32,754 bases of DNA from a virus: the UHGV virus genome UHGV-0097046; one strand, 5' to 3'. Shown here in pieces: positions 1-32,754 of the stretch (position 1 is its first letter; every line of letters begins with the position of its first letter). The notes below the pieces were generated by a model, which made no database searches, was not told the DNA's origin, and was given only the letters and a program-made list of their open reading frames with translations. The position numbers and the translations under genes were made by a program.

Positions 1-26
1 TGTGCAAACCTAACCTAAACTTACTA

Positions 27-51
27 GGGACTCTTCGAAGTCCCTTTTTTT
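27..51 (+). terminator. Hairpin gggact-cttcga-agtccc followed by TTTTTTT; candidate intrinsic terminator for transcription entering from the left
   Basis: 6-bp perfect stem plus T-run read directly from sequence; abuts stop of the convergent minus-strand ORF 50..292. Confidence 0.5.
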
Positions 52-292
52 ATGCAACAATTCGAAGTGTAAGTTTCTTATGTTGTGTAGGTTTAGTTTC
101 ATTTCGCCACTCAGGGAATACATGATCCATCATAACCGCATTAGTCTCATCAATCAGCTTTAAGGACTTTCTCAACGCCTTATTATCAGCTTTAAGTGTT
201 TTAATCTCTGATTCCATCGCTACCATTCTTTCTTTCATTTTGGTAATTTCTAACATCAGATTACCCAGAAATTCTTTGTTTTGATTCATCAT
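50..292 (-). CDS. Hypothetical small coiled-coil protein (80 aa)
   Basis: ORF with GAGGTGA Shine-Dalgarno-like sequence upstream of ATG; heptad-like K/E-rich sequence; no recognisable family. Confidence 0.5.
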   Translation of the reverse strand: MMNQNKEFLGNLMLEITKMKERMVAMESEIKTLKADNKALRKSLKLIDETNAVMMDHVFPEWRNETKPTQHKKLTLRIVA

Positions 293-307
293 AAATTCAC
301 CTCTCTA

Positions 308-1303
308 TTAAGCTGCGTATGCGTAGGCGCTGTAGTTGGTGTCGTAGATAGCGTCATGCAGTGCCATCTGTGCTTCGCGGATCTCGTCTTCGTTTACTTC
401 AATCTCTTCTTGTTCTTCTTCGGTATCTTCCCAAGTGGTTTTGAATTTAGCCATAAAGTTATTGCGCAGGGATTCAAAGTTAGTAACAGGTGCGGATTCT
501 TCTTCAACTTCAACCGGAACAACTACCGGAGCAACTTCTTGTTCTACTTCTGCAACAACACCCCAGCGATAGTTAAGGAGTTCTTCCAGTTCTTCATCAA
601 TGGATTTTTCTTCAACTGCTTCAACTTCAACCGCTGCTACTTCGAAAGTGGTTTCCTGTGCTGCCAGTTCAGCTTTCAGAGATGCGTTTTCAGCTTCCAG
701 TTCAGCGATGCGTGCTTTCAGTGCTTCAACTTCGGAATATTCAACCACTGCAACTTCTTCTTTAACTTCTTCAACTACTACCGGAGAAACTTCTTTCTGT
801 GCTTCTTTTTTGCAGAAGAAGGAGGAAGTAACCTGTAATGCGTGGTTGTAGAAGGAACCGCCTTTAGCGGTGTTAACAGTACCAGAAACATCCTTTACAG
901 TGGATTCGGTAGCAACAGTACGGAAGCGTTTTGCGACTTCCTGGGTCTCTACGCCGTATTCGTTACGTTTGCTCTTGTGATGCATTACAGCACGGAAGCC
1001 GGAAGCCGTTTTAACAACAGCCAGATAGTAAGTTTCATCAGCTTTAACAGCACGAGCGAAGCAATAAACGGATTCACCTTCTACCAGTGTAGGTTTAACG
1101 TGACGTTTGTCGAAACGGTTGGTGATCTGCCATTCAGCACCGTCTTTGATGCCAGCATTTTGACGCATTTCGGTCAGAGTCTTACCTGATACTACTTCAA
1201 AGGATTTGTCTTGTTTGCTTGCTTTACCTTCCATGACAGTGATGTTCAGTTTGCCGTTGGATTTAATAAACATGTTGAAGGTAATGCGCTTAGAATTTTT
1301 CAT
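308..1303 (-). CDS. Hypothetical early protein, 331 aa, globular N-terminal domain plus coiled-coil and strongly acidic E/V-rich C-terminal half
   Basis: Long ORF, AGGAG RBS 7 nt upstream of ATG; EALKARIAELEAENASLKAEL coiled-coil; long acidic tail; function not recognisable from sequence. Confidence 0.6.
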   Translation of the reverse strand: MKNSKRITFNMFIKSNGKLNITVMEGKASKQDKSFEVVSGKTLTEMRQNAGIKDGAEWQITNRFDKRHVKPTLVEGESVYCFARAVKADETYYLAVVKTASGFRAVMHHKSKRNEYGVETQEVAKRFRTVATESTVKDVSGTVNTAKGGSFYNHALQVTSSFFCKKEAQKEVSPVVVEEVKEEVAVVEYSEVEALKARIAELEAENASLKAELAAQETTFEVAAVEVEAVEEKSIDEELEELLNYRWGVVAEVEQEVAPVVVPVEVEEESAPVTNFESLRNNFMAKFKTTWEDTEEEQEEIEVNEDEIREAQMALHDAIYDTNYSAYAYAA

Positions 1304-1351
1304 ATAAATACTCCTGAATGCTCTGTGTTAGTTTAATTGTTCATATCAAAA

Positions 1352-1381
1352 GCCTCCTTGCGCCAACAGGGAGGCTTTTTT
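1352..1381. terminator. GC-rich hairpin (gcctcc...ggaggc) with T-run on plus strand and T-rich flank on minus strand; intergenic terminator/attenuator between leftward genes
   Basis: 9-bp stem (with one G-U) read from sequence, TTTTTT immediately 3'. Confidence 0.45.
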
Positions 1382-1419
1382 ATTTTTAAAGCCATCATAT
1401 AATTCTCAGTGAAAGGTTA

Positions 1420-1602
1420 TTACCAGACCTCGGCGGTAATCTTTACTTTAATGTCATACTTCTTTAAGAGTTTGTGGAAGGTTGATTGATCAATACCTTC
1501 ACCTTTAAACCATTCACCCATCACTACATCAGGTGTCAGTTCAAAATAACGCTTTGCCATTTCTAAAACGATTTCACGAGTGAACTTAACAGGTCGTGCC
1601 AT
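1420..1602 (-). CDS. Small Hin/resolvase-type helix-turn-helix DNA-binding protein (60 aa)
   Basis: GGAGG RBS; motif ARPVKFT...GIDQSTFHKLLKKYDIK paralogous to ORF 4638..4871 and to the C-terminus of ORF 4904..5497; resembles the DNA-binding domain of Hin-like recombinases (basic arm followed by HTH). Confidence 0.55.
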   Translation of the reverse strand: MARPVKFTREIVLEMAKRYFELTPDVVMGEWFKGEGIDQSTFHKLLKKYDIKVKITAEVW

Positions 1603-1704
1603 CTTATATCCTCCTAAATCTGGAATAATGATTTCTTAAAAAAGAGCTTTTCGCTCTGAACAATTCTATTTATAAAATGTTTTTCGAAAAACCCTGTAAA
1701 ACCA

Positions 1705-1720
1705 CTGTATATCCGATCAG
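1705..1720. promoter_or_regulatory. LexA-like SOS box candidate (CTGTATATCCGATCAG)
   Basis: CTG-N10-CAG with CTGTAT left half; lies ~5 bp upstream of a candidate leftward -35 (TTTACA) for the 1420..1602 gene. Confidence 0.4.
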
Positions 1721-1789
1721 TGGGAGCACGAATTGCTAAAGAGAAGATTAATAATTAATCAATTCGTACATTATTCAATCGAATAAGCA

Positions 1790-1823
1790 CTGTATGTTTA
1801 GCCAGTGCTGTATGAATTAACAG
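1790..1823. promoter_or_regulatory. Two adjacent LexA-like SOS boxes (CTGTATGTTTAGCCAG and CTGTATGAATTAACAG)
   Basis: Both fit CTG-N10-CAG with CTGTAT left half; the second matches about 14 of 20 positions of the E. coli consensus TACTGTATATATATACAGTA; adjacent arrangement as in colicin-type double SOS operators. Confidence 0.45.
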
Positions 1824-1960
1824 TGAATCAGGGGATTTTCAGAAGTGAACAATCATTTTCATGCATGTATTTATACACGAAAAAATCTTGCGTATCATCA
1901 ATATGTGGATTGTTTCGAAAATTTCAACCCCTACCAACGAGAAAAAGTATAAAATAATCC

Positions 1961-1974
1961 TTGACAGTTGTCAA
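1961..1974. promoter_or_regulatory. Inverted repeat TTGACA-gt-TGTCAA, operator-like palindrome containing a -35-like hexamer
   Basis: Perfect 6-bp arms with 2-bp spacer read from sequence. Confidence 0.35.
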
Positions 1975-2000
1975 TACACTTGATCTAAGCGAGAAATGAC

Positions 2001-2167
2001 TATCAAAATTTTTGTGTGAAAATGGCGGATAACGATTATCAACCTTTATAACCTATTATAGCACGGCGACCTTTTGATGATTCTTTTTAAATCATGCATT
2101 TACAGCGGTTTTTGGTGATTTTCTGGTTAAATAATATACAAGAATTTTCTATCAAAATTTTTGATGA
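2001..2167. repeat. Two copies (~150 bp apart) of an ~18-bp element cTATCAAAATTTTTGnnGAAAA containing the palindrome TCAAAA-T-TTTTGA
   Basis: Copies at about 2001-2020 and 2150-2170; second copy is a perfect 13-bp palindrome; candidate dimeric regulator binding sites. Confidence 0.4.
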
Positions 2168-2170
2168 AAA

Positions 2171-2272
2171 ACCTACACTACAAACCTACGCTTTAAAGGG
2201 ATTGGCCTACACTACACTAGCCAGTAAACCTACACTATAACACCTACACACCTACACTAACCCTACACTTCA
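2171..2272. repeat. Array of about seven direct CCTACAC(T) heptamer/nonamer repeats (iteron-like)
   Basis: Occurrences near 2172, 2185 (variant), 2206, 2229, 2243, 2251, 2264 with irregular 8-23 bp spacing in a non-coding stretch. Confidence 0.5.
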
Positions 2273-2615
2273 ATCTCATAAGTGTATGATCTTGAAAGAC
2301 ATTTCACCACACAGACCATAGAATATAAAATTCGAACTAACGTTCTCCTTTTTGCTCGTTTTCTCTCACTACGTTCAAGAAAGATCTCGCAAAAAGAATA
2401 CGGCGTAGCCGTGCGCGAAGCGCCCATCAACACCTTCTAAGACCTGCAAGCAGGATTCGAAAGGGATTGGATAGTTCGCTTCGCTCACGTTCACACCTAC
2501 GGCGTTCACTCGCTTTTGAAAGGATTTTCTCAGAAAGGGATTTAATACTAGTTACTAACTGATTCTAGTAAACGAACGAAGTGAGTAACAATCACTTTCT
2601 AGAAAGGTATTGGTT

Positions 2616-2645
2616 ATCCCTTCGGGATTGCAACCTTCGGTTGCC
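2616..2645 (+). other. Two adjacent stable hairpins with UUCG tetraloops (atccc-TTCG-gggat; gcaacc-TTCG-gttgc) in the leader upstream of the rightward early genes
   Basis: Stems and tetraloops read from sequence; candidate RNA processing or stabilising structure or part of a small RNA. Confidence 0.35.
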
Positions 2646-2844
2646 AAATTGCTTCCTGATTATTATTTCTCCAAAAGAAAGATTCTTATATTCTAAAGAT
2701 ACTTCTTCGTTTTGATGATGATTTATTCAAAATCTATGAAGGAGGGCTTTGCCCGACTGAATACAATCACCTTTCATAATAACAAGAATTTTCTCTTTAT
2801 AAATAATATTAGATTGATTCACTTTCTTTTAGAGAATTTCCACT

Positions 2845-3312
2845 ATGAACCACAAGATGACTACCACTACTCCTTTTATCCTTCTGGGTCTGGATTCTGA
2901 TAGCTTCCACAATGACAAGTTAATGAAGATGTTCCGTGAACGTGGTTATAACATCCTTTTCAACTCTGATGAATCCCATTTCTCTAGTGCATGGTATGCG
3001 TTTTACCGTAATAAGAAGCCGACCATTGTTGTTAACGTCTTCACCGATGAAGAACGCTTAAAGTACCAGGATCTACCAGCAATTATTGTTCGTGATGATC
3101 TTCCGTTTGAAGTCCGTTCCGGTGACATTGACCTGGGTAGCTTCGTTACTGTCTATGAACTGGATGAAGCAATGTTTAACTACGGCAAAGAAACCGCTCA
3201 GGAAGCCCCAGAAGAAGATGAACAAGACGAAGATGACGACGACTACGCACCAATCTGTTTTTCTTCTCAGAATGGCTTCTACGGTTACGACGAAGGCTTA
3301 GATATGCTGTAA
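2845..3312 (+). CDS. Hypothetical early protein (155 aa) with acidic C-terminal tract (EEDEQDEDDDD)
   Basis: ORF from track; no strong RBS, start uncertain (alternative ATG at 2857); function not recognisable. Confidence 0.4.
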   Translation: MNHKMTTTTPFILLGLDSDSFHNDKLMKMFRERGYNILFNSDESHFSSAWYAFYRNKKPTIVVNVFTDEERLKYQDLPAIIVRDDLPFEVRSGDIDLGSFVTVYELDEAMFNYGKETAQEAPEEDEQDEDDDDYAPICFSSQNGFYGYDEGLDML

Positions 3313-3348
3313 GTTAGGTCAACCCCTTGGCGTCTTGTCAAGGGGGCA

Positions 3349-3377
3349 TTGACAAAAATTTCTGACTTTTTTATGAT
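3349..3377 (+). promoter_or_regulatory. Sigma70-type promoter: -35 TTGACA, 17-bp spacer, -10 TATGAT
   Basis: Consensus -35 and 5/6 -10 at canonical spacing, located upstream of the small ORF at 3436 and the Rha-family gene; preceded by a 7-bp-stem hairpin at 3323-3345. Confidence 0.55.
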
Positions 3378-3435
3378 TATCGCACTTGACAACTTTGATC
3401 CTATTTGACCTAGATTTGTAAAGAGGATGTTAATT

Positions 3436-3582
3436 ATGAACACTACTAAGAAAATTGATGGACGTAAAACCCCGAACCGCAAACCGTGGACCCCAAACCT
3501 GAATTTCTCAATGGTTGACTTCCATGAACGCCAGCGTCGCATTCAAGAAGAAATTGATCGCGCGATTGCTGAATCTAAATGA
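3436..3582 (+). CDS. Small basic protein (48 aa), not in ORF track (below length cutoff)
   Basis: ATG 8 nt downstream of AAGAGGA RBS; translation MNTTKKIDGRKTPNRKPWTPNLNFSMVDFHERQRRIQEEIDRAIAESK; preferred over the overlapping minus-strand ORF 3285..3542. Confidence 0.4.
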   Translation: MNTTKKIDGRKTPNRKPWTPNLNFSMVDFHERQRRIQEEIDRAIAESK

Positions 3583-3673
3583 GATAAAAACTTCTTATAA
3601 ATAAAATTGTTCCGGTGATGCTGCCGGAACTAGGAGGACCAAATCACTAAACCGTTTAAGGGGAATTTTTACT

Positions 3674-4489
3674 ATGAATACTGTTACTACTATGAATACT
3701 GCTATTAAACCTGCTTCCGTGTCTCTGGTTGTTGATAACACCAAACCGCTGACCATGTCTTCTCGTCAGATCGCTGAATTTACCGGAAAAGAGCATAAAA
3801 ACGTTAAACGTGATATTAAATCCATGCTCGATGCTCTGGAATTAGATGTGCTCAGTTTTGAGCGCACCTATCTTGATCAGTGTGGACGTGAACAAACCGA
3901 ATATCACCTTGACGAAGAAATGACGCTGACTCTTGTCACTGGTTACGATGTTAAGCGTCGAATGATCGTTATTCAGGAATGGAAACGACTGAAAGAAGAA
4001 AATGAAAAACTGCGTCAGGAACGTTTAGCCGTTAACCCGTATGCAGACTTTGAAGAAACCGACTGGATCGAACTGGCGTTAAAGAAAACTCGTGAAAATA
4101 AAAAGCTGATTGAACTTCATGTTCGTAAGTCTGTAGACAGCCATTCAATGACACGTCTGTTAGGCGCTAAAAAGGGCGCTACGAAGGTTAAAGAAGCACT
4201 GACGGCCTTACGTACTGCTGGATACATTGAGCGCGTCTATGATGAAAATAACAAGCCGTGTGGGTATGTTGCTAATGACTCTTCTCTGTCTTTCTGCCGC
4301 ATGAATGCTCACTACCAGCTTGAGTTTACTGTTGATGTGCTTCCGGTGCTGGTTGAATTGGGTGTTCTGGAAGAAGAACAAAAAGCAACTCTGAATCTTC
4401 CTAAGCCGAACAACACTATTCTGATTCAAAATAAAGCGGCTGAACGTCTCCGCCAGAATGTTGGATCACTGGAAGTCTTCGGACTGTAA
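3674..4489 (+). CDS. Rha-family phage regulatory protein (antirepressor-like N-terminal domain) with unknown C-terminal domain
   Basis: N-terminal motif LTMSSRQIAEFTGKEHKNVKRDIKSMLDALE matches the Rha domain signature (...IAE.TGK.H.NV.RDI...); AAGGGGA RBS; ends with TAATAA. Confidence 0.7.
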   Translation: MNTVTTMNTAIKPASVSLVVDNTKPLTMSSRQIAEFTGKEHKNVKRDIKSMLDALELDVLSFERTYLDQCGREQTEYHLDEEMTLTLVTGYDVKRRMIVIQEWKRLKEENEKLRQERLAVNPYADFEETDWIELALKKTRENKKLIELHVRKSVDSHSMTRLLGAKKGATKVKEALTALRTAGYIERVYDENNKPCGYVANDSSLSFCRMNAHYQLEFTVDVLPVLVELGVLEEEQKATLNLPKPNNTILIQNKAAERLRQNVGSLEVFGL

Positions 4490-4497
4490 TAATTTTT

Positions 4498-4522
4498 AGC
4501 CTCGCCTCGTGCGGGGCTTTTT
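4498..4522 (+). terminator. Intrinsic terminator (agcctcgc-ctcgt-gcggggct + TTTTT)
   Basis: 8-bp stem with one G-U, 5-nt loop, T-run; same hairpin design as terminators at 11823 and 17766. Confidence 0.65.
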
Positions 4523-4637
4523 CATACCTACATCACGCGACTTTTCGCGCCATCTTCCACCAACTCGCCGATGGCGTTTTGGACAACCCTATAGATACAA
4601 AAAAGCCACTCCGAAGAGTGGCAAAGAGAATCAAAAC

Positions 4638-4871
4638 TCAAAAACCTGTTGCTTCTACGATCTGACCATCACCGATCTGAACATAGAATTTAATGTCTAA
4701 CTTCTTCATATTCTTATAGAATTGGGCAATTGAAATCCCATGTTCACTAAGAATCTGTTCTTTCGCTTCCTTACCACGATCCGCTGTATAATAAGCGTAG
4801 GCAATATCAGCCATTTGTTCAGCGTTAAAACGGGCAGGACGACCGCGAGTAGCTTTAGTAGTCATAGTCAT
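4638..4871 (-). CDS. Small Hin/resolvase-type HTH DNA-binding protein (75-77 aa) with N-terminal GRP basic arm
   Basis: TKATRGRPARF...GISIAQFYKNMKKLDIK; paralog of 1420..1602; GGAGA RBS suits the second ATG (start about 4865). Confidence 0.55.
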   Translation of the reverse strand: MTMTTKATRGRPARFNAEQMADIAYAYYTADRGKEAKEQILSEHGISIAQFYKNMKKLDIKFYVQIGDGQIVEATGF

Positions 4872-4903
4872 TTCTCCAAATTAAAGTGAATGTTCACTTT
4901 TAT

Positions 4904-5497
4904 TTAGAGTGACTTACATTTTATCGGAAAAAGTTCTCCATCGTCAACCGACATAAAGAACTCTGCCTTAATCCCGTACTTCTTCAACCGTGAATAGTAT
5001 GTACCCCGACTTATATCAACCTTGCGAAGCACTTCAAAGAAGGATTTAGGATCGTTGTAATAGTGGCTGTACTTCACGTTAGCGAGTTCAACGAATAGTT
5101 CCCTTGTATCACCATAGCCTTTCTTGAAAGCCTCGTTACGATAGCGTGTAATAGCGTGATTCAATCTCTTCTGTTTCAACACTTCTCGGATCGACTTCCA
5201 CTGCAACCGATAGATAGGACCGTCATCAATGCGATAATAACGCTTGATATCAAAATCAAACCAATCTCGGACTCTCCGAAACTCTGTATGTGATGTTCTA
5301 TGCTTCTTAAAGAAGTTGTGAATATCGGTATACCCATGATCGCGATACAACTCGATTAAAATCTCTTTCGCTTCTTCGCGACTAAAACCGGATGTAGTGT
5401 AATCGGTCTTTAAGTGCTTATGTTTTACTGGCAAACGATATTCATGATCGGTACAAGACAAGGCTAATTCATCTCTTTCTTGCTGATTAATTAGCAT
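4904..5497 (-). CDS. Hypothetical protein (197 aa) with C-terminal Hin-type HTH-like segment
   Basis: Strong AAGGAGGG RBS; C-terminal ISRGTYYSRLKKYGIK resembles the HTH of the two small paralogs; divergent from terminase gene. Confidence 0.6.
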   Translation of the reverse strand: MLINQQERDELALSCTDHEYRLPVKHKHLKTDYTTSGFSREEAKEILIELYRDHGYTDIHNFFKKHRTSHTEFRRVRDWFDFDIKRYYRIDDGPIYRLQWKSIREVLKQKRLNHAITRYRNEAFKKGYGDTRELFVELANVKYSHYYNDPKSFFEVLRKVDISRGTYYSRLKKYGIKAEFFMSVDDGELFPIKCKSL

Positions 5498-5583
5498 ACA
5501 CCCTCCTTAAATCTTAATACCGTATTTATCAAAATATCAACAATTTAATAAATACCTTCATATTTCGTAATGAGGGTAATTAC

Positions 5584-7488
5584 ATGAAACTGATTTCTAA
5601 TAAGGCAAAATTAAAAAAGATTCTCAAAAATATCTCTGCTGCAATTCGTCCACCTAAAACCATGAAACCTAGCGAATGGGTAGAGGCTAATGTAGTTGCG
5701 ACCGATGGTGTTAAAGCCGGATCGCTAATTAAATTGCATCCCTTCCAACGTGGAATGATGGACGCGATCACCGAAGACCGTAGAAAAATTGTGTTTAAAT
5801 GTTCGGCACAGTTGGGTAAGACCATGATTCTTAACGGAATTATCTTCCATCGGATCGCGAGTAACCCTACTAATATCGGGGTGTTGCAATCGAATGTCCG
5901 CGAGTTGAATAGCTGGATCGCTGGTAAGGTGAAGCCAGTATTAGAGGCAACACCAGAATTAAAGGCGATGATCACCGACAAATCAGATCGCAATGCCGTT
6001 AACAACTCATCGATTATTCAGCTTCGTAACGGATCGTTTATGTATTTCATGTCGTTGAATAGTCCGTCACATCTTCGCGGTAAAACACTCCCTTTGATTA
6101 TTCTTGATGAAGTTGATGCGGCTGATGAGTCAGACGAAGGGAACCCGATCCAGCTAGCGGAACAACGCGCAACCACTTTCGGGGAAGATGCAAGGATCGT
6201 AATTGCTTCCACTCCAACCGCTCGTGATGGGGCGATTAACCAACAATGGGAACTCTCGGATAAGAGAAAATATCATGTCGTTTGCCAGCATTGCGGACAC
6301 AAGCACGTAATGGAATGGAGTAGAGTTTTCTTTGATTGGCATACGATTAACTGTAAATCACTGCCGAATCCAGATACTGCCGTTTATCGTTGCCCGTCAT
6401 GTGAAACTGATTGGACAGAAGGGGATCGCCTACGTGCTGTTGCTCAAGGTGAATGGATTGCTACAGAACCAAATGCGGAAGTAATCGGTTTTCATGCTAA
6501 CCGCCTTATGTCTCCGTTTAGTTCTATCCGTGCGTGTGTGGTGGACTTTGCTGATAGCTACGCGAATATGTCACTAGCAACGTTCTACAATACAGTCCTC
6601 GGTGAAACCTTCGATGATCTTAACGAAGATCGCACAGCCGACGAACTGGAAACGCTGAAAACTGATATTAGCCTAGACAATATTCCTGATGATGTACTGG
6701 CTCTGGTAGGTGGAGTTGACCAGCAAAAAGACCGTCTGGAATCTACCTTGCTGGGTATCTCTCGTAAGGGGATATGCGTAGTTGATCACCGATCATTCTA
6801 TGATGTGAACTGCGAACGCCACGAATCACCAGCATATGACCAGCTTTATAACTTCCTGAAAGCGAAATTCTATACCCGATCCGGTGAACGAATCCCGATG
6901 CTATCTGCTTTCGTGGACTCATCGAACGGACGAGCTACAAACGTGATCTACCGTTTTTGCACTAGGTGGCAAAACCTATGCGCCATTAAAGGCGCAAGTA
7001 ATGCTGATGCTCCAATCCTTCCGGCTAAGGACACAAGAACGGGCGGTTTTACTCTCAAAATTCTGGGCGTAAACAACCTTAAGACGATGATCCGTGAAAT
7101 GATTAACCGGAACTTGAGAGATGGCGATCCTCATACTGTCTTCCAGATTGGTGACGTTCCTGATGACTATTGCGAGCAATTGCTTTCTGAACAGTTGAAA
7201 CGGCAGGGTAATACCACACGTTGGGTAAAAGTTGGTCAGCAACGAAACGAGGCTCTCGACTGCCTGGCTTATTCCTATGCTGCTTCTCGCCATGTACTCA
7301 ATAAAATGTCATGGGAAAAACTCGAAGCCATCAAAGATAGTTTGAACCGTGAACCAGAAGAACCCGTAAAAGCTCCTGAAACGCAATCTGACGAGCAAAT
7401 CGAAGAAACTAAGCCAATCACACGACCACAACGTCAAAACATCGCCAGACGCCCAAATAGAGGCCGTAGCTGGGTAACATCGTTCTAA
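5584..7488 (+). CDS. Terminase large subunit, lambda gpA-like
   Basis: P-loop-like CSAQLGKT, Walker B LIILDEVD, and recognisable similarity to lambda gpA segments (EW..AN, PFQRG.M.A, HCGH zinc-ribbon-like, TVLGETF, RNEALDCLAYSYAA); first gene of rightward late operon. Confidence 0.88.
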   Translation: MKLISNKAKLKKILKNISAAIRPPKTMKPSEWVEANVVATDGVKAGSLIKLHPFQRGMMDAITEDRRKIVFKCSAQLGKTMILNGIIFHRIASNPTNIGVLQSNVRELNSWIAGKVKPVLEATPELKAMITDKSDRNAVNNSSIIQLRNGSFMYFMSLNSPSHLRGKTLPLIILDEVDAADESDEGNPIQLAEQRATTFGEDARIVIASTPTARDGAINQQWELSDKRKYHVVCQHCGHKHVMEWSRVFFDWHTINCKSLPNPDTAVYRCPSCETDWTEGDRLRAVAQGEWIATEPNAEVIGFHANRLMSPFSSIRACVVDFADSYANMSLATFYNTVLGETFDDLNEDRTADELETLKTDISLDNIPDDVLALVGGVDQQKDRLESTLLGISRKGICVVDHRSFYDVNCERHESPAYDQLYNFLKAKFYTRSGERIPMLSAFVDSSNGRATNVIYRFCTRWQNLCAIKGASNADAPILPAKDTRTGGFTLKILGVNNLKTMIREMINRNLRDGDPHTVFQIGDVPDDYCEQLLSEQLKRQGNTTRWVKVGQQRNEALDCLAYSYAASRHVLNKMSWEKLEAIKDSLNREPEEPVKAPETQSDEQIEETKPITRPQRQNIARRPNRGRSWVTSF

Positions 7489-28636: not shown

Positions 28637-28990
28637 ATGTTAAGCAAACATTTTTCTCGCAAGGAATTTAAATGTAAATGCGGAAAATGTGATTATGATA
28701 CAATCGACGCTGAATTACTGGTAATTCTTGAGGATGTACGAGAGCACTTCGGTAAACCAGTGATTATTAACAGTGGCAACCGTTGCCCGACTCATAACAA
28801 GAATGTAGGCGGGGCAGCCAATAGCTATCACGTTCGAGGCCGTGCGGCTGACATTGTTATCAAGGGTGTCTCACCTGATATTGTTCATGCTTATCTTGAT
28901 GGGAAATATCCTACTCAATACGGCTTAGGAAAATATAAAACATTTACGCATATCGATTCCAGATCAAAAAAATCACGGTGGAATGGATAA
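28637..28990 (+). CDS. Endolysin, peptidase M15 (zinc D-Ala-D-Ala carboxypeptidase / L-Ala-D-Glu peptidase-like)
   Basis: Motif SGNRCPTHNKNVGGAANSYHVRGRAADIV with H-x6-D and downstream H zinc ligands typical of M15/hedgehog-type peptidases; TAAGGGGGTAAT RBS. Confidence 0.8.
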   Translation: MLSKHFSRKEFKCKCGKCDYDTIDAELLVILEDVREHFGKPVIINSGNRCPTHNKNVGGAANSYHVRGRAADIVIKGVSPDIVHAYLDGKYPTQYGLGKYKTFTHIDSRSKKSRWNG

Positions 28991-29262: not shown

Positions 29263-29535
29263 CTATGATTTATTTTCTTGTTCTATGAAAATCTTTCTCA
29301 CCTCATCAGAATAAATGTCTAGTGATTCCTCATAACATTTTCTGTATTCACCGTAATTACTGGTGGTCTTTTGACATAGCAATTTCAATGTCTTATGTGC
29401 TCCATCAATGAAAGCATCTTCTCTATAGGTTAGCGGTCTACGCATTTCTTGGTCTACGGTTGCCAATGCCAGGCAAGAATTCATAGATAAAATCAAACCT
29501 AAAATCTTAATCATCTTCATTAGCTTAAATTCCAA
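29263..29535 (-). CDS. Small secreted protein (about 83-90 aa) with signal peptide
   Basis: N-terminal hydrophobic segment MIKILGLILSMNSCLALA with AxA-type cleavage site; overlaps recombinase stop by 11 nt (co-transcribed). Confidence 0.55.
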   Translation of the reverse strand: MEFKLMKMIKILGLILSMNSCLALATVDQEMRRPLTYREDAFIDGAHKTLKLLCQKTTSNYGEYRKCYEESLDIYSDEVRKIFIEQENKS

Positions 29536-31219
29536 ATTCTTGTAATGGACCTGGTATTTCTTCTTCTGGTTTCCAGTTCTTATCTGTCAGCATGTCTAAA
29601 CATGGATGCAGAACAAGCCCGTTACTCTCCAGAATCTGCCTATCATTGATAGTCTTCAAATCAACGAAGATCCGGCCTTTCCTCGGTCCTCTTGAATTTT
29701 CTATTACAACTCTCTGGGTCTTGCCATCGATGTATTCCAGTACAAACAAGTTTTTGTACTTGTCAATCCTGCTACACCCGATCCGTTTTAGAGCTTGCTT
29801 AATCTTAAACCGGACCTTAATGCGATCCTCGTTGTAAACATCTTCTAAATCAAATTCTGCGAGCTTCTCCCAGCCTTGAGAGTCAACAGAATACATTTCC
29901 TCTTCTGCCATCTTAATTTGATTGTAGAGTGTTTCACGCTCGCTATTGAGGGTAGTAATCTGATCGGCTAGCTCCTTCGTTGCTCCTGTCATAGCAGAAA
30001 GGGTAATCAGGTTATCAATCTTGCGTGATATTTCATCAATCTGTACTTTCAAAGCCGGAACCGGATTAGCCTTATCTTCAGCAATCCAGATTTTATCAGC
30101 CAGCAATTGCAATACAGCTTTCTCTAATTGGTCGCCGCGAAAACTCCAGTTTGTATGCACACATTCAATACGACTAGAGCGCATTGCATCGCATGAATAA
30201 CGATATTGGTTAGGCCGTCTGTTTGTTCCTTTCACCTTAACCATAGCGGAACCGCAATGTTCACATTTCAATAGACCAACACCACTAAGCAAGGGAATAG
30301 GTTTAACTTCTTCTTTGTCTCCAAAGTTACATGCTCTAACACCAATGCTTTTCTTAAGGTGATAAAACTCAGCGTCATCTAGCACACGAGGATAATAATC
30401 CTTTAACTCATACTTAACGCCATCTACAGAGATTTCCTTGATACCAATCAAAGCGCGGGTATGGAACAACCTTTCAATCATTGCCCGTGACCAGTTTGAA
30501 TGCCTCTTGTGACTTGCGGCTGGTGGTGGTGTGTATGTCGCGTTAAGGTGATCCAGTATCTCGGCGGTTGACCGTCCATTCCTGCGTAATTCCACAACTT
30601 CCTGAACAATAGGGAAGAAGACCGGATGAGGAAGCACATAACCAGATGTGGTATCAGTCCACCACATATTCTTTCCAATTTCCTCGATTGCAACAGCCGG
30701 ATTTTGTGGATTTTCTTGATGAGCTTTAATCTTAATCAGTGCGCTTGAGTTAGTACGATTGCGCTTAGTCTGGCTTTCCTCATTACCACGGATGAATAAA
30801 AGGATGGAGAACATCAGGTCCATCGGGTTAGCGGTAACAGTATCCAGCGAGTAGATCTTGTTATCCATGCCAGTAACAATGGTTATCCCCCTACGGATGA
30901 TTGAAAGGAATAACTCCTGCGCACTGACAATATCGGCACGGGATAAACGGTCCAAGTTTTCGATGAATAGCCAGCTACCAACAGGAACGGATCTACCTAT
31001 TGCATCAAGGAAACGAGATAGCGCCCCTGTTTTGGAGTTAGCACCCTTAAACGCAGATACACCCAGATCCTGATAATCATTTACCAGTTCAAGGTCATAC
31101 TTTACCGCAATCTCTCTAGCCATCCTGATTTGTCGTTCATAACTCGAACCATCATTCTGACGCATAGACGAGAAGCGAATATACGAATACAGTTTAGTTT
31201 TCATACCATTTCCAAACAA
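29525..31219 (-). CDS. Large serine recombinase (serine integrase/resolvase family, 559-564 aa)
   Basis: N-terminal catalytic domain motifs YIRFSSMRQ (active-site Ser) and DRLSR; large C-terminal region with Cys-rich zinc-ribbon-like segment (CEHCGSAMV...YRYSCD...ECVH) and coiled-coil; track start is TTG at 31219, alternative ATG at 31204. Confidence 0.85.
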   Translation of the reverse strand: MFGNGMKTKLYSYIRFSSMRQNDGSSYERQIRMAREIAVKYDLELVNDYQDLGVSAFKGANSKTGALSRFLDAIGRSVPVGSWLFIENLDRLSRADIVSAQELFLSIIRRGITIVTGMDNKIYSLDTVTANPMDLMFSILLFIRGNEESQTKRNRTNSSALIKIKAHQENPQNPAVAIEEIGKNMWWTDTTSGYVLPHPVFFPIVQEVVELRRNGRSTAEILDHLNATYTPPPAASHKRHSNWSRAMIERLFHTRALIGIKEISVDGVKYELKDYYPRVLDDAEFYHLKKSIGVRACNFGDKEEVKPIPLLSGVGLLKCEHCGSAMVKVKGTNRRPNQYRYSCDAMRSSRIECVHTNWSFRGDQLEKAVLQLLADKIWIAEDKANPVPALKVQIDEISRKIDNLITLSAMTGATKELADQITTLNSERETLYNQIKMAEEEMYSVDSQGWEKLAEFDLEDVYNEDRIKVRFKIKQALKRIGCSRIDKYKNLFVLEYIDGKTQRVVIENSRGPRKGRIFVDLKTINDRQILESNGLVLHPCLDMLTDKNWKPEEEIPGPLQEFGI

Positions 31220-31267
31220 AAACGCCCCTACCGCGTATTATAACGATAGGGGCTAGGTGATTAAAGA

Positions 31268-31681
31268 TTAAAGAATTTCACGGCAGCTAATCAGGGAATA
31301 AGACGTATCACCTTTTTTAACATCAAATATAGGCGCGCCATCTACAGAATGCAGATATTTGATGTAGGATTTACCATCTTCGGAACCATAATATTCTTCT
31401 TTCTCGTTCTTATCTTCTTTCAGTTTTGGGCTTTTGATTGTTTTATCAAATACCGGATCGTTGAAAGCAAATTGACTATTATCATCATTCACTCGAACCT
31501 TTACACCGATAAAACCACGGTATTTGCCAGACGGCGCATGATAATAACGGTCGCCATCACGAAGATATTGTGTATCATCTCCTTTATGTTCGAAGTAGGA
31601 ATTACACACATAATAGGTATTAGCATTCGCAGCACCAACCAAACCCAGAGCAAGAACAACACCAGCGATAATCTTTTTCAT
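31268..31681 (-). CDS. Secreted protein (137 aa) with signal peptide
   Basis: MKKIIAGVVLALGLVGAANA signal sequence; two Cys; no family recognised. Confidence 0.6.
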   Translation of the reverse strand: MKKIIAGVVLALGLVGAANANTYYVCNSYFEHKGDDTQYLRDGDRYYHAPSGKYRGFIGVKVRVNDDNSQFAFNDPVFDKTIKSPKLKEDKNEKEEYYGSEDGKSYIKYLHSVDGAPIFDVKKGDTSYSLISCREIL

Positions 31682-31723
31682 AGTAGAACTTCCTCTTGTT
31701 GTTTGAATTACGATATATTTATA

Positions 31724-31852
31724 TCGTTAAAAGTTAATACTAATAATCAGACCAAACACAACCGCGCCAATCAAATCCATCCAGTCAATACACAAGCCGC
31801 TATATTCTTTCTTGAATGTCTTAGATGAAATGCCATCATGAAATTGTTTCAT
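31724..31852 (-). CDS. Tiny membrane peptide candidate (about 42 aa, MKQFHDGISSKTFKKEYSGLCIDWMDLIGAVVFGLIISINF); a second about 25-aa hydrophobic peptide lies just upstream (about 31855-31935)
   Basis: GGGGTGA and GGAG RBS-like sequences before each ATG; C-terminal TM segment; below ORF-track cutoff; coordinates approximate. Confidence 0.3.
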
Positions 31853-31953
31853 TGCTCACCCCATACTAACGACAATATAAGAAAGACTAATCATAGTTGT
31901 GAGACTACCTCCCACGAATGAGATAAAAGCTAACATGTTTGATTCTCCAGTTT

Positions 31954-31979
31954 AAAAAGCGGTGGGAATTGCACCCACC
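31954..31979 (-). terminator. Minus-strand intrinsic terminator (hairpin ggtggg/cccacc followed by GCTTTTT on the minus strand)
   Basis: 6-bp stem, 7-nt loop, U-tract on minus-strand RNA immediately after stop of 31983..32423. Confidence 0.5.
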
Positions 31980-31982
31980 AAA

Positions 31983-32423
31983 TTAGAAATTAATTAAGCG
32001 CGAACGATGGTCAGAGTATCCAGCAAACCTTTTTTCGTATAATTCGAAACACGTTTTATATTGCTCAATCTTCCAACCGTAGCGGGTAATCTTATTCAGT
32101 AGAACAATCACGGTATTCTCATCTAGGTATTGTCCTTGCTGTCCAATTACATAAGTCTCACGATTCAATCTCAGCTTACGGAAACCTTTAACACCTAATT
32201 CCTTAGCCACTGCTTTAATCTCTTTAATCTCACCTTCTGCGGCTACATATTCAGCGTCGATAATCTCAGGTGATGATCTCAGTGCTACCAGAACTAAGGC
32301 CATTGCTTCTTCTTCGGTACGAGCAACACCAGCTTTCTCGAAAGTCATCTCACCAAATTTACGAATCATGATATTGAACATTGTCTGTATTCCGTTTAAA
32401 TCTGCGGGAATAGTACCCGCCAA
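31983..32423 (-). CDS. Hypothetical protein (133-146 aa)
   Basis: Track start is TTG; first ATG (MFNIMIRKF...) about 42 nt downstream is preferred because a hairpin (gcggg...cccgc) occupies the upstream part. Confidence 0.5.
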   Translation of the reverse strand: MAGTIPADLNGIQTMFNIMIRKFGEMTFEKAGVARTEEEAMALVLVALRSSPEIIDAEYVAAEGEIKEIKAVAKELGVKGFRKLRLNRETYVIGQQGQYLDENTVIVLLNKITRYGWKIEQYKTCFELYEKRFAGYSDHRSRLINF

Positions 32424-32431
32424 ATTAGAAA

Positions 32432-32704
32432 TTACTTCTTGCTGATAAACTCTTTAGCGATAAAGTTGATTACTTCTTTCAGCTTCTTGTCTGTATCGAT
32501 GCACGCTGGTAATTCTTCTTTAATATCCTGCGGCAGATACACATTGCCTTTAAAGTGGAGGAAACCATCATTACCAATCATGTAGGAGAACATCCATTCA
32601 CAATCGTTATCCGCTTCCCAGAGCGCCACGGTCTCATCGTCAATCAAGGTAATGTCCATGTTGCGACGCGCTGCGTAGTTGATGATTGCTTTACCGATGT
32701 TCAT
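32432..32704 (-). CDS. Hypothetical small acidic protein (90 aa from ATG at 32704)
   Basis: GAGGGGG RBS 8 nt upstream of the internal ATG (MNIGKAII...); the track start at 32728 lacks an RBS. Confidence 0.5.
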   Translation of the reverse strand: MNIGKAIINYAARRNMDITLIDDETVALWEADNDCEWMFSYMIGNDGFLHFKGNVYLPQDIKEELPACIDTDKKLKEVINFIAKEFISKK

Positions 32705-32754
32705 TGTTGTACCCCCTCGTGTTATCATGGGTACATGATATTAGGGAAACCTAA

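What the first reader, a model, noticed from the sequence alone, without database searches (positions are those of the whole stretch)
31686..32728. Right-end leftward cassette of small genes punctuated by terminators, including two tandem tiny hydrophobic peptides
Between 31686 and 32728 the minus strand carries two unknown proteins (about 90 and 133 aa), each followed by its own hairpin terminator sharing the motif CCAA(A)TTAGAAATTA, then two tandem micro-ORFs (about 25 and 42 aa) that are largely transmembrane and each have an RBS. The pattern resembles moron or accessory cassettes; small membrane peptides next to small acidic proteins could form a toxin/immunity or exclusion module. Nothing matches families I can recognise by eye.
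Basis: inference. Interest (0 to 1): 0.45.

Follow-up and report, generated by a model that had tools for sequence, protein, structure and literature searches.

The report
Prophage-end cassette with two tiny membrane peptides
The stretch is the accessory-gene arm between the chromosome junction and the integrase of an uncharacterised E. coli prophage, and its two tiny membrane-peptide genes are real, unannotated and always found next to that integrase, though their function is still unknown.

Summary
On the minus strand lie g90 (32704-32432), g132 (32381-31983), a 26-aa ORF (31936-31856) and a 41-aa ORF (31852-31727), and two copies of TAATTTCTAATTTGG plus a hairpin.

Context: the window is a prophage inserted in E. 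coli hicB by a large serine integrase.

Comparison with about 30 related loci (integrases 70-100% identical) splits the cassette in two.
- The att-proximal cytoplasmic genes are shuffled. g132 is an optional 442-nt unit bounded by a 40-nt direct repeat, which explains the shared motif. g90 (phrog_6147) is absent from some relatives and occurs in virulent phages.
- The two micro-ORFs were in every locus checked. They are under purifying selection (pN/pS 0.085 and 0.44 in frame, at least 1 off frame). They are translationally coupled and usually accompanied by a small secreted protein.

A toxin/immunity pairing with g90 or g132 is not supported. The most likely reading, by inference only, is a prophage envelope module such as superinfection exclusion. 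No known family matches. Only the second hairpin looks like a terminator.

The parts
32705..32754 (-). attR junction and conserved leader. It holds crossover core (T)TTAGGTTT at 32754-32747, the phage arm CCCTAATATCATGTACCCAT, and the RBS GAGGGGG.
   Evidence: In E. coli E275a the hicB 3' fragment starts about 14 nt inside the window end. attL in strain H2 gives the same core. The roughly 45-nt leader is conserved in 7 lineages whatever the first gene is.
32432..32704 (-). g90: a 90-aa acidic cytoplasmic protein, member of phrog_6147, function unknown.
32398..32437 (-). Direct-repeat copy 1: TAATTTCTAATTTGG plus hairpin GCGGG-TACTATT-CCCGC (32420-32404). It has no T-run.
   Evidence: The terminator scan did not call it.
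31983..32381 (-). g132: optional gene, 128 aa in most relatives with the stop at 31994-31996. The window allele is frameshifted by an extra A at 32030-32035. The C-terminal half belongs to phrog_14908, with a Rho_N/HeH-like motif at residues 52-71.
   Evidence: Absent in L041, L057, L058, L060 and L064. The AF2 model is unusable, pLDDT 35.
31956..31995 (-). Direct-repeat copy 2: the same 15-mer plus hairpin GGTGGG-TGCAATT-CCCACC followed by GCTTTTT. It looks like a terminator.
   Evidence: It is the only copy present in loci that lack g132.
31856..31936 (-). micro-ORF1: a 26-aa, entirely hydrophobic, single-helix membrane peptide (MLAFISFVGGSLTTMISLSYIVVSMG).
   Evidence: GRAVY 1.64. 25-26-aa homologues share a Y[ILM]V core (YIVV, YLVV or YMVV in all but L066, which has YMVN) in every lineage. 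pN/pS is 0.44 in frame against 1.0-1.3 off frame.
31727..31852 (-). micro-ORF2: a 41-aa tail-anchored peptide. Its N-terminal motif (window MKQFHDGISSKTFKK; family M[KR]QFHxGISSKT[FY]) is polar and nearly invariant. A variable linker and a C-terminal membrane helix follow.
   Evidence: pN/pS is 0.085 in frame against 3-4.7 off frame, and an in-frame 3-nt indel occurs. In the first 16 codons, window against Salmonella L040 shows 6 synonymous changes, including TCT to AGC, and 1 non-synonymous change.
31711..31726 (.). 16-bp AT-rich palindrome CGATATAAATATATCG between micro-ORF2 and the next gene. Role unknown.
   Evidence: Read from the sequence. Conserved in the E. coli relatives, where one variant begins with T.
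31268..31681 (-). 137-aa secreted protein (signal peptide MKKIIAGVVLALGLVGAANA, 2 Cys).
   Evidence: In relatives it is replaced by 81-, 77- or 113-aa envelope proteins, most with the same signal peptide, or is deleted.
31224..31253 (-). Strong intrinsic terminator that closes the cassette. Its loop holds a perfect TATAAT, about 17 nt before the int start codon.
   Evidence: -20.5 kcal/mol, z -4.8. Called by the scan. Hairpin and TATAAT are conserved in 7 lineages, with a compensatory stem change in L044.
29525..31204 (-). Large serine integrase, 559 aa.
   Evidence: Resolvase, Recombinase and Zn_ribbon_recom domains. phrog_95 integrase, E 3e-58.

Best explanation
The stretch is the accessory arm between attR and the integrase gene of an uncharacterised E. 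coli prophage of about 35 kb. The prophage is inserted in hicB by a large serine integrase. The arm is one leftward gene string with two kinds of content.

1. Att-proximal, swappable small cytoplasmic proteins. g90 belongs to phrog_6147 and has an RWD-like alpha/beta fold. g132 is an optional 442-nt unit whose gain or loss runs through a 40-nt direct repeat (15-mer plus hairpin). That repeat is the origin of the 'shared terminator motif'. Relatives of these proteins occur in virulent phages, so they are general phage accessory proteins and not partners of the peptides.

2. A conserved envelope module next to int. It consists of a 26-aa all-hydrophobic peptide and a 41-aa tail-anchored peptide with a nearly invariant cytoplasmic N-terminus. 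They are translationally coupled and usually accompanied by a small secreted or lipid-anchored protein. A strong terminator closes the module, and the int promoter probably lies inside that terminator.

Inferred mechanism: the two peptides insert into the inner membrane and, with the periplasmic partner, form a small envelope complex that serves the prophage. The most likely role is blocking entry of superinfecting phage DNA, or otherwise altering the envelope. The anatomy, coding status and linkage to int are shown. Membrane location is predicted. Timing of expression and the function are inference.
For: Context:
- Prophage in hicB, with attL and attR identified.
- The integrase has the three serine-recombinase domains.

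Modularity:
- A 40-nt repeat flanks g132.
- Loci without g132 carry one repeat copy directly after g90.
- The secreted-protein slot is replaced, duplicated or deleted.
- g90 is absent in L044, L066 and L068.

The micro-ORFs are genes:
- They are intact in every locus examined, including 17 of 17 IMG/VR integrase loci.
- pN/pS is 0.085 and 0.44 in frame, and at least 1 off frame.
- There is an in-frame indel.
- RBSs or ATGA stop/start overlaps are kept even when a 62- to 80-aa gene is inserted between them.

Linkage to int:
- All clusters whose context was examined lie upstream of a serine integrase of 557-571 aa that is 70-100% identical, at the hicB or ycdX site.
- The family is tiny: 9 clusters at 50% identity among 1.84 billion proteins.

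Envelope theme:
- Hydrophobicity of the peptides.
- Signal peptides or lipoboxes on the partner proteins.
- Analogy to membrane-inserted moron proteins such as HK97 gp15 (PMC3594210).
Against: - There is no expression or phenotype data.
- No credible sigma-70 promoter was found for the cassette. The first gene starts about 45 nt from the crossover, so in the lysogen it may lack a promoter. If so, the genes would be made only from the circular genome, which weakens a lysogenic-conversion role.
- No homology to any known exclusion, defence or toxin family.
- Strict synteny with int could instead point to a role in integration or the lysogeny decision.
- GC content differs only slightly from the rest of the prophage, 38.9% against 41.9%.
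Confidence: 0.45

Rival explanations
1. Early operon read across attP. The whole string (g90 through the secreted protein) has no promoter of its own in the lysogen. It is transcribed only after circularisation, on infection or excision, from a promoter on the other side of attP. Its products then act during establishment or lytic growth and are not lysogenic-conversion factors.
For: - The first gene starts about 45 nt from the crossover, and the intervening sequence is the conserved attP arm plus an RBS.
- A promoter-like site (TTGAGA-16-AAAAAT with an upstream TG) points toward attP about 25 nt from the core on the attL side.
- g90 and the phrog_14908, phrog_16283 and phrog_15990 proteins have relatives in virulent phages. 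In phage Sortsne the g90 homologue lies in a run of small genes at the genome end.
Against: - The promoter match is weak (9 of 12) and overlaps a terminator.
- Envelope-directed small proteins next to att are typical of prophage-expressed genes.
- The internal hairpin-terminator after g132 would limit read-through to the peptides.
Confidence: 0.2
2. Control of lysogeny or recombination. micro-ORF2 is a membrane-tethered regulator whose invariant cytoplasmic N-terminus binds a conserved partner. The partner could be the integrase, acting as a directionality or sequestration factor. It could also be FtsH, in the manner of lambda cIII (the cIII comparison is from my own knowledge).
For: - micro-ORF2 is the one small gene kept beside int in every lineage while everything else is shuffled.
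- Its N-terminal 13 residues stay almost unchanged where the rest of the peptide has diverged to roughly 40% identity. In those same lineages the integrases are 70-73% identical.
Against: - Known directionality factors of serine integrases are soluble proteins (from my own knowledge).
- A strong terminator insulates the module from int.
- The accompanying periplasmic proteins fit an envelope role better.
- Synteny may simply reflect a module inherited together.
Confidence: 0.12
3. Toxin module. The hydrophobic peptides are membrane-damaging toxins (type I-like, or abortive infection), held in check by a neighbouring small protein or an antisense RNA.
For: - Their size and hydrophobicity resemble type I toxins.
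- One weak plus-strand promoter-like site (31718-31747) points antisense into micro-ORF2.
Against: - g90 and g132 do not co-occur with the peptides.
- The peptides sit inside a translationally coupled polycistron, with ATGA overlaps to neighbouring genes. They do not form a separate unit with a structured leader.
- No Rfam match. No PADLOC, Pfam or NCBIfam match.
- The two peptides can be separated by inserted genes.
Confidence: 0.1
4. The micro-ORFs are chance ORFs in an AT-rich spacer or untranslated region, and the conservation reflects an RNA or DNA element.
For: RefSeq leaves them unannotated in nearly all of the 57 genomes that carry them.
Against: - Substitutions are concentrated at synonymous sites of the annotated frame only, including a TCT to AGC serine switch.
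- Indels are in frame.
- Length, RBS or coupling and the hydrophobic pattern are kept at about 40% identity.
Confidence: 0.03

Closest known systems
Morons / lysogenic-conversion cassettes at prophage ends (for example HK97 gene 15; Cumby et al. 2012, PMC3594210)
   Same: - Extra genes are present in some relatives and absent in others, and are bounded by hairpins or terminators.
- The products are small and directed to the envelope.
- HK97 gp15 is a small inner-membrane protein that blocks DNA entry.
   Different: - No promoter was identified.
- GC content differs only slightly.
- The micro-ORF pair is not optional: it is in every relative checked.
- No sequence similarity to gp15/YebO or any other described moron product.
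T4 Imm plus Sp superinfection exclusion pair (from my own knowledge)
   Same: Small membrane proteins encoded by a phage that act at the inner membrane and periplasm. This is a multi-component envelope module.
   Different: - No homology.
- Imm and Sp are much larger than 26 and 41 aa.
- T4 is virulent.
- The resemblance is a lead, not a test.
Type I toxins (Hok, Ibs, ShoB, TisB, Ldr; from my own knowledge)
   Same: Hydrophobic single-helix peptides of 19-50 aa, some of them prophage-borne. hok translation is coupled to the upstream mok ORF.
   Different: - No antisense RNA gene or structured leader was detected.
- The peptides are embedded in an operon.
- Two distinct conserved peptides occur together with a periplasmic partner.
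- No sequence similarity.
phrog_6147 (for g90) and phrog_14908 (for the C-terminal half of g132)
   Same: Significant profile matches (E 5.9e-33 and 1.4e-14). Members occur in Sortsne, LL5, ESP2949-1, RaK2, egaa and IME_EC2.
   Different: Both PHROGs have no assigned function, so membership gives no mechanism.

Membership tests
Moron (independent accessory unit in a phage genome) | Present in some close relatives and absent in others | tested here: met
   g132 and the secreted-protein slot vary. This is not true of the micro-ORF pair, which is always present.
Moron (independent accessory unit in a phage genome) | Own promoter | tested here: inconclusive
   The only minus-strand sigma-70-like match is weak, lies inside micro-ORF1 and is not conserved in L040. 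A TAATAT sits at the att junction without a -35 element.
Moron (independent accessory unit in a phage genome) | Own terminator | tested here: met
   Terminator-like sites at 31980-31960 and 31253-31224. The hairpin after g90 is not terminator-like.
Moron (independent accessory unit in a phage genome) | Base composition differs from neighbouring genes | tested here: inconclusive
   Cassette 38.9% GC, micro-ORFs 34-37%, whole window 41.9%.
Moron (independent accessory unit in a phage genome) | Expressed from the repressed prophage | not testable with these tools
   Needs RNA-seq or a reporter in a lysogen.
Toxin plus adjacent protein antitoxin or immunity pair | Obligate co-occurrence of the two partners | tested here: not met
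   The peptides occur without g132 (L041, L057, L058, L060, L064) and without g90 (L044, L066, L068). g90 occurs in virulent phages, and micro-ORF2 was not found in the phage collection.
Type I toxin-antitoxin | Small hydrophobic toxin peptide | tested here: met
   26 aa with GRAVY 1.64, and 41 aa with a C-terminal membrane helix.
Type I toxin-antitoxin | Antisense or overlapping sRNA gene and an autonomous transcription unit | tested here: not met
   No Rfam hit. Only a weak antisense promoter-like site. The ORFs are coupled to neighbouring genes by ATGA overlaps.
Known superinfection-exclusion families (Cor, Imm, SieA, gp15/YebO) | Sequence membership | tested here: not met
   No Pfam, PHROG, NCBIfam or PADLOC hit for the peptides. 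For the 137-aa protein there is only a signal-peptide-level Cor match, E 0.19.
Known superinfection-exclusion families (Cor, Imm, SieA, gp15/YebO) | Blocks infection when expressed | not testable with these tools
   Needs plating assays.
phrog_6147 | Full-length profile match | tested here: met
   g90 residues 1-85 against profile positions 1-88 of 91, E 5.9e-33.
Recombination directionality factor of a serine integrase | Genetic linkage to the integrase | tested here: met
   micro-ORF2 lies 30-500 nt upstream of int in all lineages. Linkage alone does not define the family.
Recombination directionality factor of a serine integrase | Binds Int and switches attL x attR recombination on | not testable with these tools
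   Needs in vivo or in vitro recombination assays.

The most novel reading that the evidence does not exclude
The 26-aa peptide, the 41-aa tail-anchored peptide and the small periplasmic 2-Cys protein form a previously undescribed three-part inner-membrane system. It is functionally tied to a lineage of enterobacterial large serine integrases. It would be either a new kind of entry-exclusion device, or a membrane-tethered switch whose invariant M[KR]QFHxGISSKTF tail controls integration, excision or the lysogeny decision.
Probability: 0.15. Interest if true: 0.65.

Novelty: new member of a known kind. Interest (0 to 1): 0.4.

Why it matters
- Two conserved protein-coding genes of 26 and 41 codons are missing from RefSeq annotation in almost all of the 57 complete E. 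coli genomes that carry them.
- They define a very small family: 9 clusters among 1.84 billion proteins.
- The family is strictly tied to one lineage of serine-integrase prophages of E. coli, Salmonella and relatives.
- Small membrane proteins of prophages are a known but thinly sampled source of phage-exclusion and envelope-modifying functions.
- The invariant cytoplasmic tail of micro-ORF2 gives a concrete handle for finding its partner.
- The analysis also shows how a shared 'terminator motif' can simply be the scar of modular gene gain or loss.
- The prophage itself has no sequenced isolate. Its integrase is less than 31% identical to anything in the phage collection.

Tried and rejected
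- Pfam, NCBIfam and PADLOC scans of all five cassette products gave nothing significant. PHROGs matched only families of unknown function.
- The same held for eight alternative cargo proteins from relatives. The only hint was a weak Rz-like match for the 113-aa protein, E 5e-4.
- Rfam on 31100-32754 gave nothing real. There are no tRNAs in the window.
- The g132 structure prediction failed (pLDDT 35, shallow alignment), so no fold search was run on it.
- PDB sequence searches with the g90 and micro-ORF2 profiles found nothing.
- Two genome-contig scans with the integrase found no usable locus.
- The phage collection holds neither micro-ORF2 nor a close integrase.
- A literature search for a hicB-integrating serine-recombinase prophage found nothing relevant.
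- Considered and dropped: holin or spanin roles, because the peptides are too small and the endolysin lies elsewhere at 28637-28990.
- Considered and dropped: a tRNA-like T-loop reading of the hairpins, which is a pattern only with no support.
- Considered and dropped: the plus-strand ORF 31349-31828, which lies antisense to real genes and overlaps the slot that is replaced or deleted in relatives.

Full report
**1. What is in the sequence.**
Reading 32754 to 31200 on the minus strand gives, in order:
- a 50-nt leader;
- g90 (32704-32432, 90 aa, RBS GAGGGGG);
- the 15-mer TAATTTCTAATTTGG overlapping its stop, then a hairpin GCGGG-TACTATT-CCCGC;
- g132 (32381-31983, 132 aa);
- the same 15-mer overlapping its stop, then hairpin GGTGGG-TGCAATT-CCCACC and GCTTTTT;
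- micro-ORF1 (31936-31856, 26 aa, RBS GGAG);
- three bases later, micro-ORF2 (31852-31727, 41 aa, RBS GGGGTGAG);
- a 16-bp palindrome;
- a 137-aa protein with a Sec signal peptide (31681-31268);
- a strong terminator (31253-31224);
- a 559-aa large serine recombinase (31204-29525).

The 15-mer occurs only at these two places in the window, against about 0.26 expected at up to 2 mismatches. It is the core of a 40-nt direct repeat, 83% identical and spaced 442 nt apart. Only the second hairpin and the pre-int hairpin pass a terminator scan. Folding energies are -10.2, -11.4 and -20.5 kcal/mol. g90 is acidic (pI 4.7) and g132 is not (pI 8.6). micro-ORF1 is wholly hydrophobic, while micro-ORF2 is polar and basic for 25 residues and then hydrophobic.

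**2. Where it sits.**
The region is 96-99.9% identical to chromosomal segments of 62 of 5,426 complete E. coli genomes. In strain E275a the window end abuts the 3' fragment of hicB. In strain H2 the other prophage end abuts the 5' part of hicB, about 2.6 kb beyond window position 1.
- The window is therefore most of a 35-kb prophage inserted in the antitoxin gene hicB.
- The crossover core is TTTAGGTTT.
- The cassette is the arm between attR and int, transcribed toward int.
- The rest of the window encodes a terminase and a tail-tip protein (annotated in near-identical prophages), an M15 endolysin and a Rha/Ant-like regulator. Most early genes have no PHROG match.
- No sequenced phage carries a close integrase (at most 31% identity) or micro-ORF2.

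**3. Comparative anatomy.**
Related loci came from several sources:
- IMG/VR;
- contigs encoding g90 homologues;
- contigs encoding micro-ORF2 homologues.

Their integrases are 70-100% identical to the window's. They sit either in hicB or in ycdX next to csgG.

The arrangements seen:

| Locus | Order from att to int |
|---|---|
| window | g90, g132, m1, m2, sec137 |
| L041 | g90, m1, m2, TM113, sec81 |
| L057 | g90, m1, m2, sec81 |
| L042 | g90, g128, 89 aa, m1, m2, sec77 |
| L040 | g90, 69 aa, 81 aa, lipoprotein105, m1, m2 |
| L044 | 81 aa, lipoprotein106, m1, 62 aa, m2 |
| L066 | 69 aa, m1, sec77, m2 |
| L068 | 81 aa, 71 aa, m1, sec80, m2 |

(m1 and m2 are micro-ORF1 and micro-ORF2. "sec" marks a secreted protein and "TM" a membrane-anchored one.)

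Four conclusions follow.
- (a) g132 is optional. Where it is absent, a single copy of the repeat follows g90 directly. The two motif copies in the window are therefore the boundaries of a 442-nt insertion/deletion unit.
- (b) g90 is also dispensable. It belongs to phrog_6147, whose members occur in virulent phages such as Sortsne, LL5, ESP2949-1 and RaK2.
- (c) The two micro-ORFs were present in every lineage examined, including 17 of 17 IMG/VR integrase loci. They are always in the half nearest int. They are linked to each other or to inserted genes by short gaps or ATGA overlaps.
- (d) A small exported protein nearly always accompanies them. In three lineages it is a 77-80-aa protein with a C-x11-C motif.

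**4. Are the micro-ORFs genes?**
Yes, on four lines of evidence.
- Among 18 distinct micro-ORF2 sequences, pN/pS is 0.29 overall. Among the 41-aa variants it is 0.085, against 3.0 and 4.7 in the two other frames. For micro-ORF1 it is 0.44 in frame against 1.3 and 1.0 off frame.
- A 3-nt indel changes SGLC to SLC or SLS without breaking the frame.
- Between the window and Salmonella L040, the first 16 codons of micro-ORF2 carry six synonymous changes, including TCT to AGC, and one amino-acid change.
- A full HMMER profile search of 1.84 billion cluster representatives found only nine clusters. All start with M[KR]QFH[DEQ]GISSKT[FY].

micro-ORF1 homologues keep their length (25-26 aa), their hydrophobicity and a Y[ILM]V core: YIVV, YLVV or YMVV in all but L066, which reads YMVN. 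RefSeq annotates almost none of them: 'none' appears under the match in nearly all of 57 genomes.

**5. The larger proteins.**
- g90 gives a confident model (pLDDT 90) with helix, four strands, helix.
- Foldseek against the PDB finds nothing significant, and BFVD finds only uncharacterised phage proteins. The fold suggests a protein-binding module and nothing more.
- The g132 family is almost confined to Escherichia, at 84-98% identity. Its C-terminal half is phrog_14908, with a weak Rho_N/HeH-like motif. The same domain exists as a separate 81-aa gene in Salmonella elements.
- The g132 model failed.
- The window allele has an extra A in a poly-A run, which changes the last residues. One other database entry shares this end.

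**6. Mechanism.**
*Shown:*
- a mosaic arm of small genes at a prophage end;
- a conserved, translationally coupled pair of tiny hydrophobic proteins tied to a serine integrase lineage;
- exported partner proteins;
- insulation from int by a conserved terminator.

*Inferred:* the peptides sit in the inner membrane. micro-ORF2 is probably N-in, given its lysines before the helix. Together with the periplasmic partner they would form an envelope complex. The best guess is a prophage-benefit function at the envelope such as superinfection exclusion, by analogy with HK97 gp15, a small inner-membrane moron product (PMC3594210).

*Weak point:* no convincing promoter was found. The first gene starts about 45 nt from the crossover, inside a leader that is conserved whatever that gene is. 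The cassette may therefore be read only across attP in the circular genome. A weak promoter-like site faces attP from the attL side.

The strict synteny of micro-ORF2 with int, and its invariant tail, keep a regulatory role alive as well. A toxin/immunity pairing with g90 or g132 is contradicted by the co-occurrence data. A type I toxin reading lacks an antisense RNA and an autonomous unit.

**7. Verdict.**
- The moron/accessory reading is supported for the arm as a whole.
- The specific toxin/immunity idea is not supported.
- The noteworthy result is a new, unannotated two-peptide family locked to a serine-integrase prophage lineage. Its function is unknown, and it is most likely a new member of the class of small envelope proteins carried by prophages.

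Noticed in passing
window 32740-32754 plus flanks; L001 7541-7660; L002 2100-2411: The prophage interrupts hicB, the antitoxin gene of hicAB. The 5' part keeps roughly the first 100 codons of HicB and ends CCKPQ*. On the attR side the phage supplies an in-frame ATG (MILGKPKQEITRLF...) for the C-terminal fragment. The same MILG start precedes the ycdX 3' fragment (MILGNPKY...) in elements inserted at ycdX.
   Followed up: partly
window 31224-31253; L040, L041, L042, L044, L066, L068 upstream of int: The terminator just before int carries a perfect TATAAT in its loop in all seven lineages, with a compensatory stem change in L044. Only about 17-20 nt remain before the int ATG. The int promoter is probably nested in the terminator, so the int mRNA would start inside the 3' half of the stem.
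   Followed up: partly
L040, L041, L042 against the window (att junctions): Integrases 91-92% identical to the window's use a different attB, ycdX next to csgG, instead of hicB. The two cores are similar: TTTAGGTTT against TTTGGATT.
   Followed up: partly
window 29263-29535 (-): An ORF of 79-90 aa overlaps the int stop. It has a signal-peptide-like start and a C-x11-C-Y motif. It resembles the 77-80-aa secreted 2-Cys proteins that sit between or after the micro-ORFs in L042, L066 and L068.
   Followed up: partly
window 32030-32035: A poly-A run of six, against five in most relatives, shifts the frame of the last g132 codons. One other database protein (P0001) shares the shifted end, so this may be a real slippage allele and not a sequencing error.
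   Followed up: partly
L069 (E. coli HCP5S3_I4, 99.9% identical): An IS5 is inserted in the stretch that holds the micro-ORFs, and an IS1 lies where int should be. This copy looks like a decaying prophage.
   Followed up: no
window 31711-31726: A 16-bp AT-rich perfect palindrome, CGATATAAATATATCG, lies directly after the micro-ORF2 stop and is conserved in the E. coli relatives. It could be an operator or part of a promoter for the secreted-protein gene.
   Followed up: no
window 32404-32420 and 31961-31979; L040 5279-5297: The hairpin after g90 or g132 keeps a 7-nt loop with U at position 1 and A at position 5, on stems that differ by compensatory changes (GGCGGG/CCCGCC against GGTGGG/CCCACC). 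It is a conserved stem-loop whose role is unclear (leaky terminator, mRNA stabiliser or recombination hotspot).
   Followed up: partly
window 1-5600: Most genes at the left end have no PHROG match, apart from a Rha/Ant-like regulator at 3674-4489. No repressor or replication gene was recognised among the left-end ORFs scanned, and no isolated phage is related. The phage type itself appears undescribed.
   Followed up: partly
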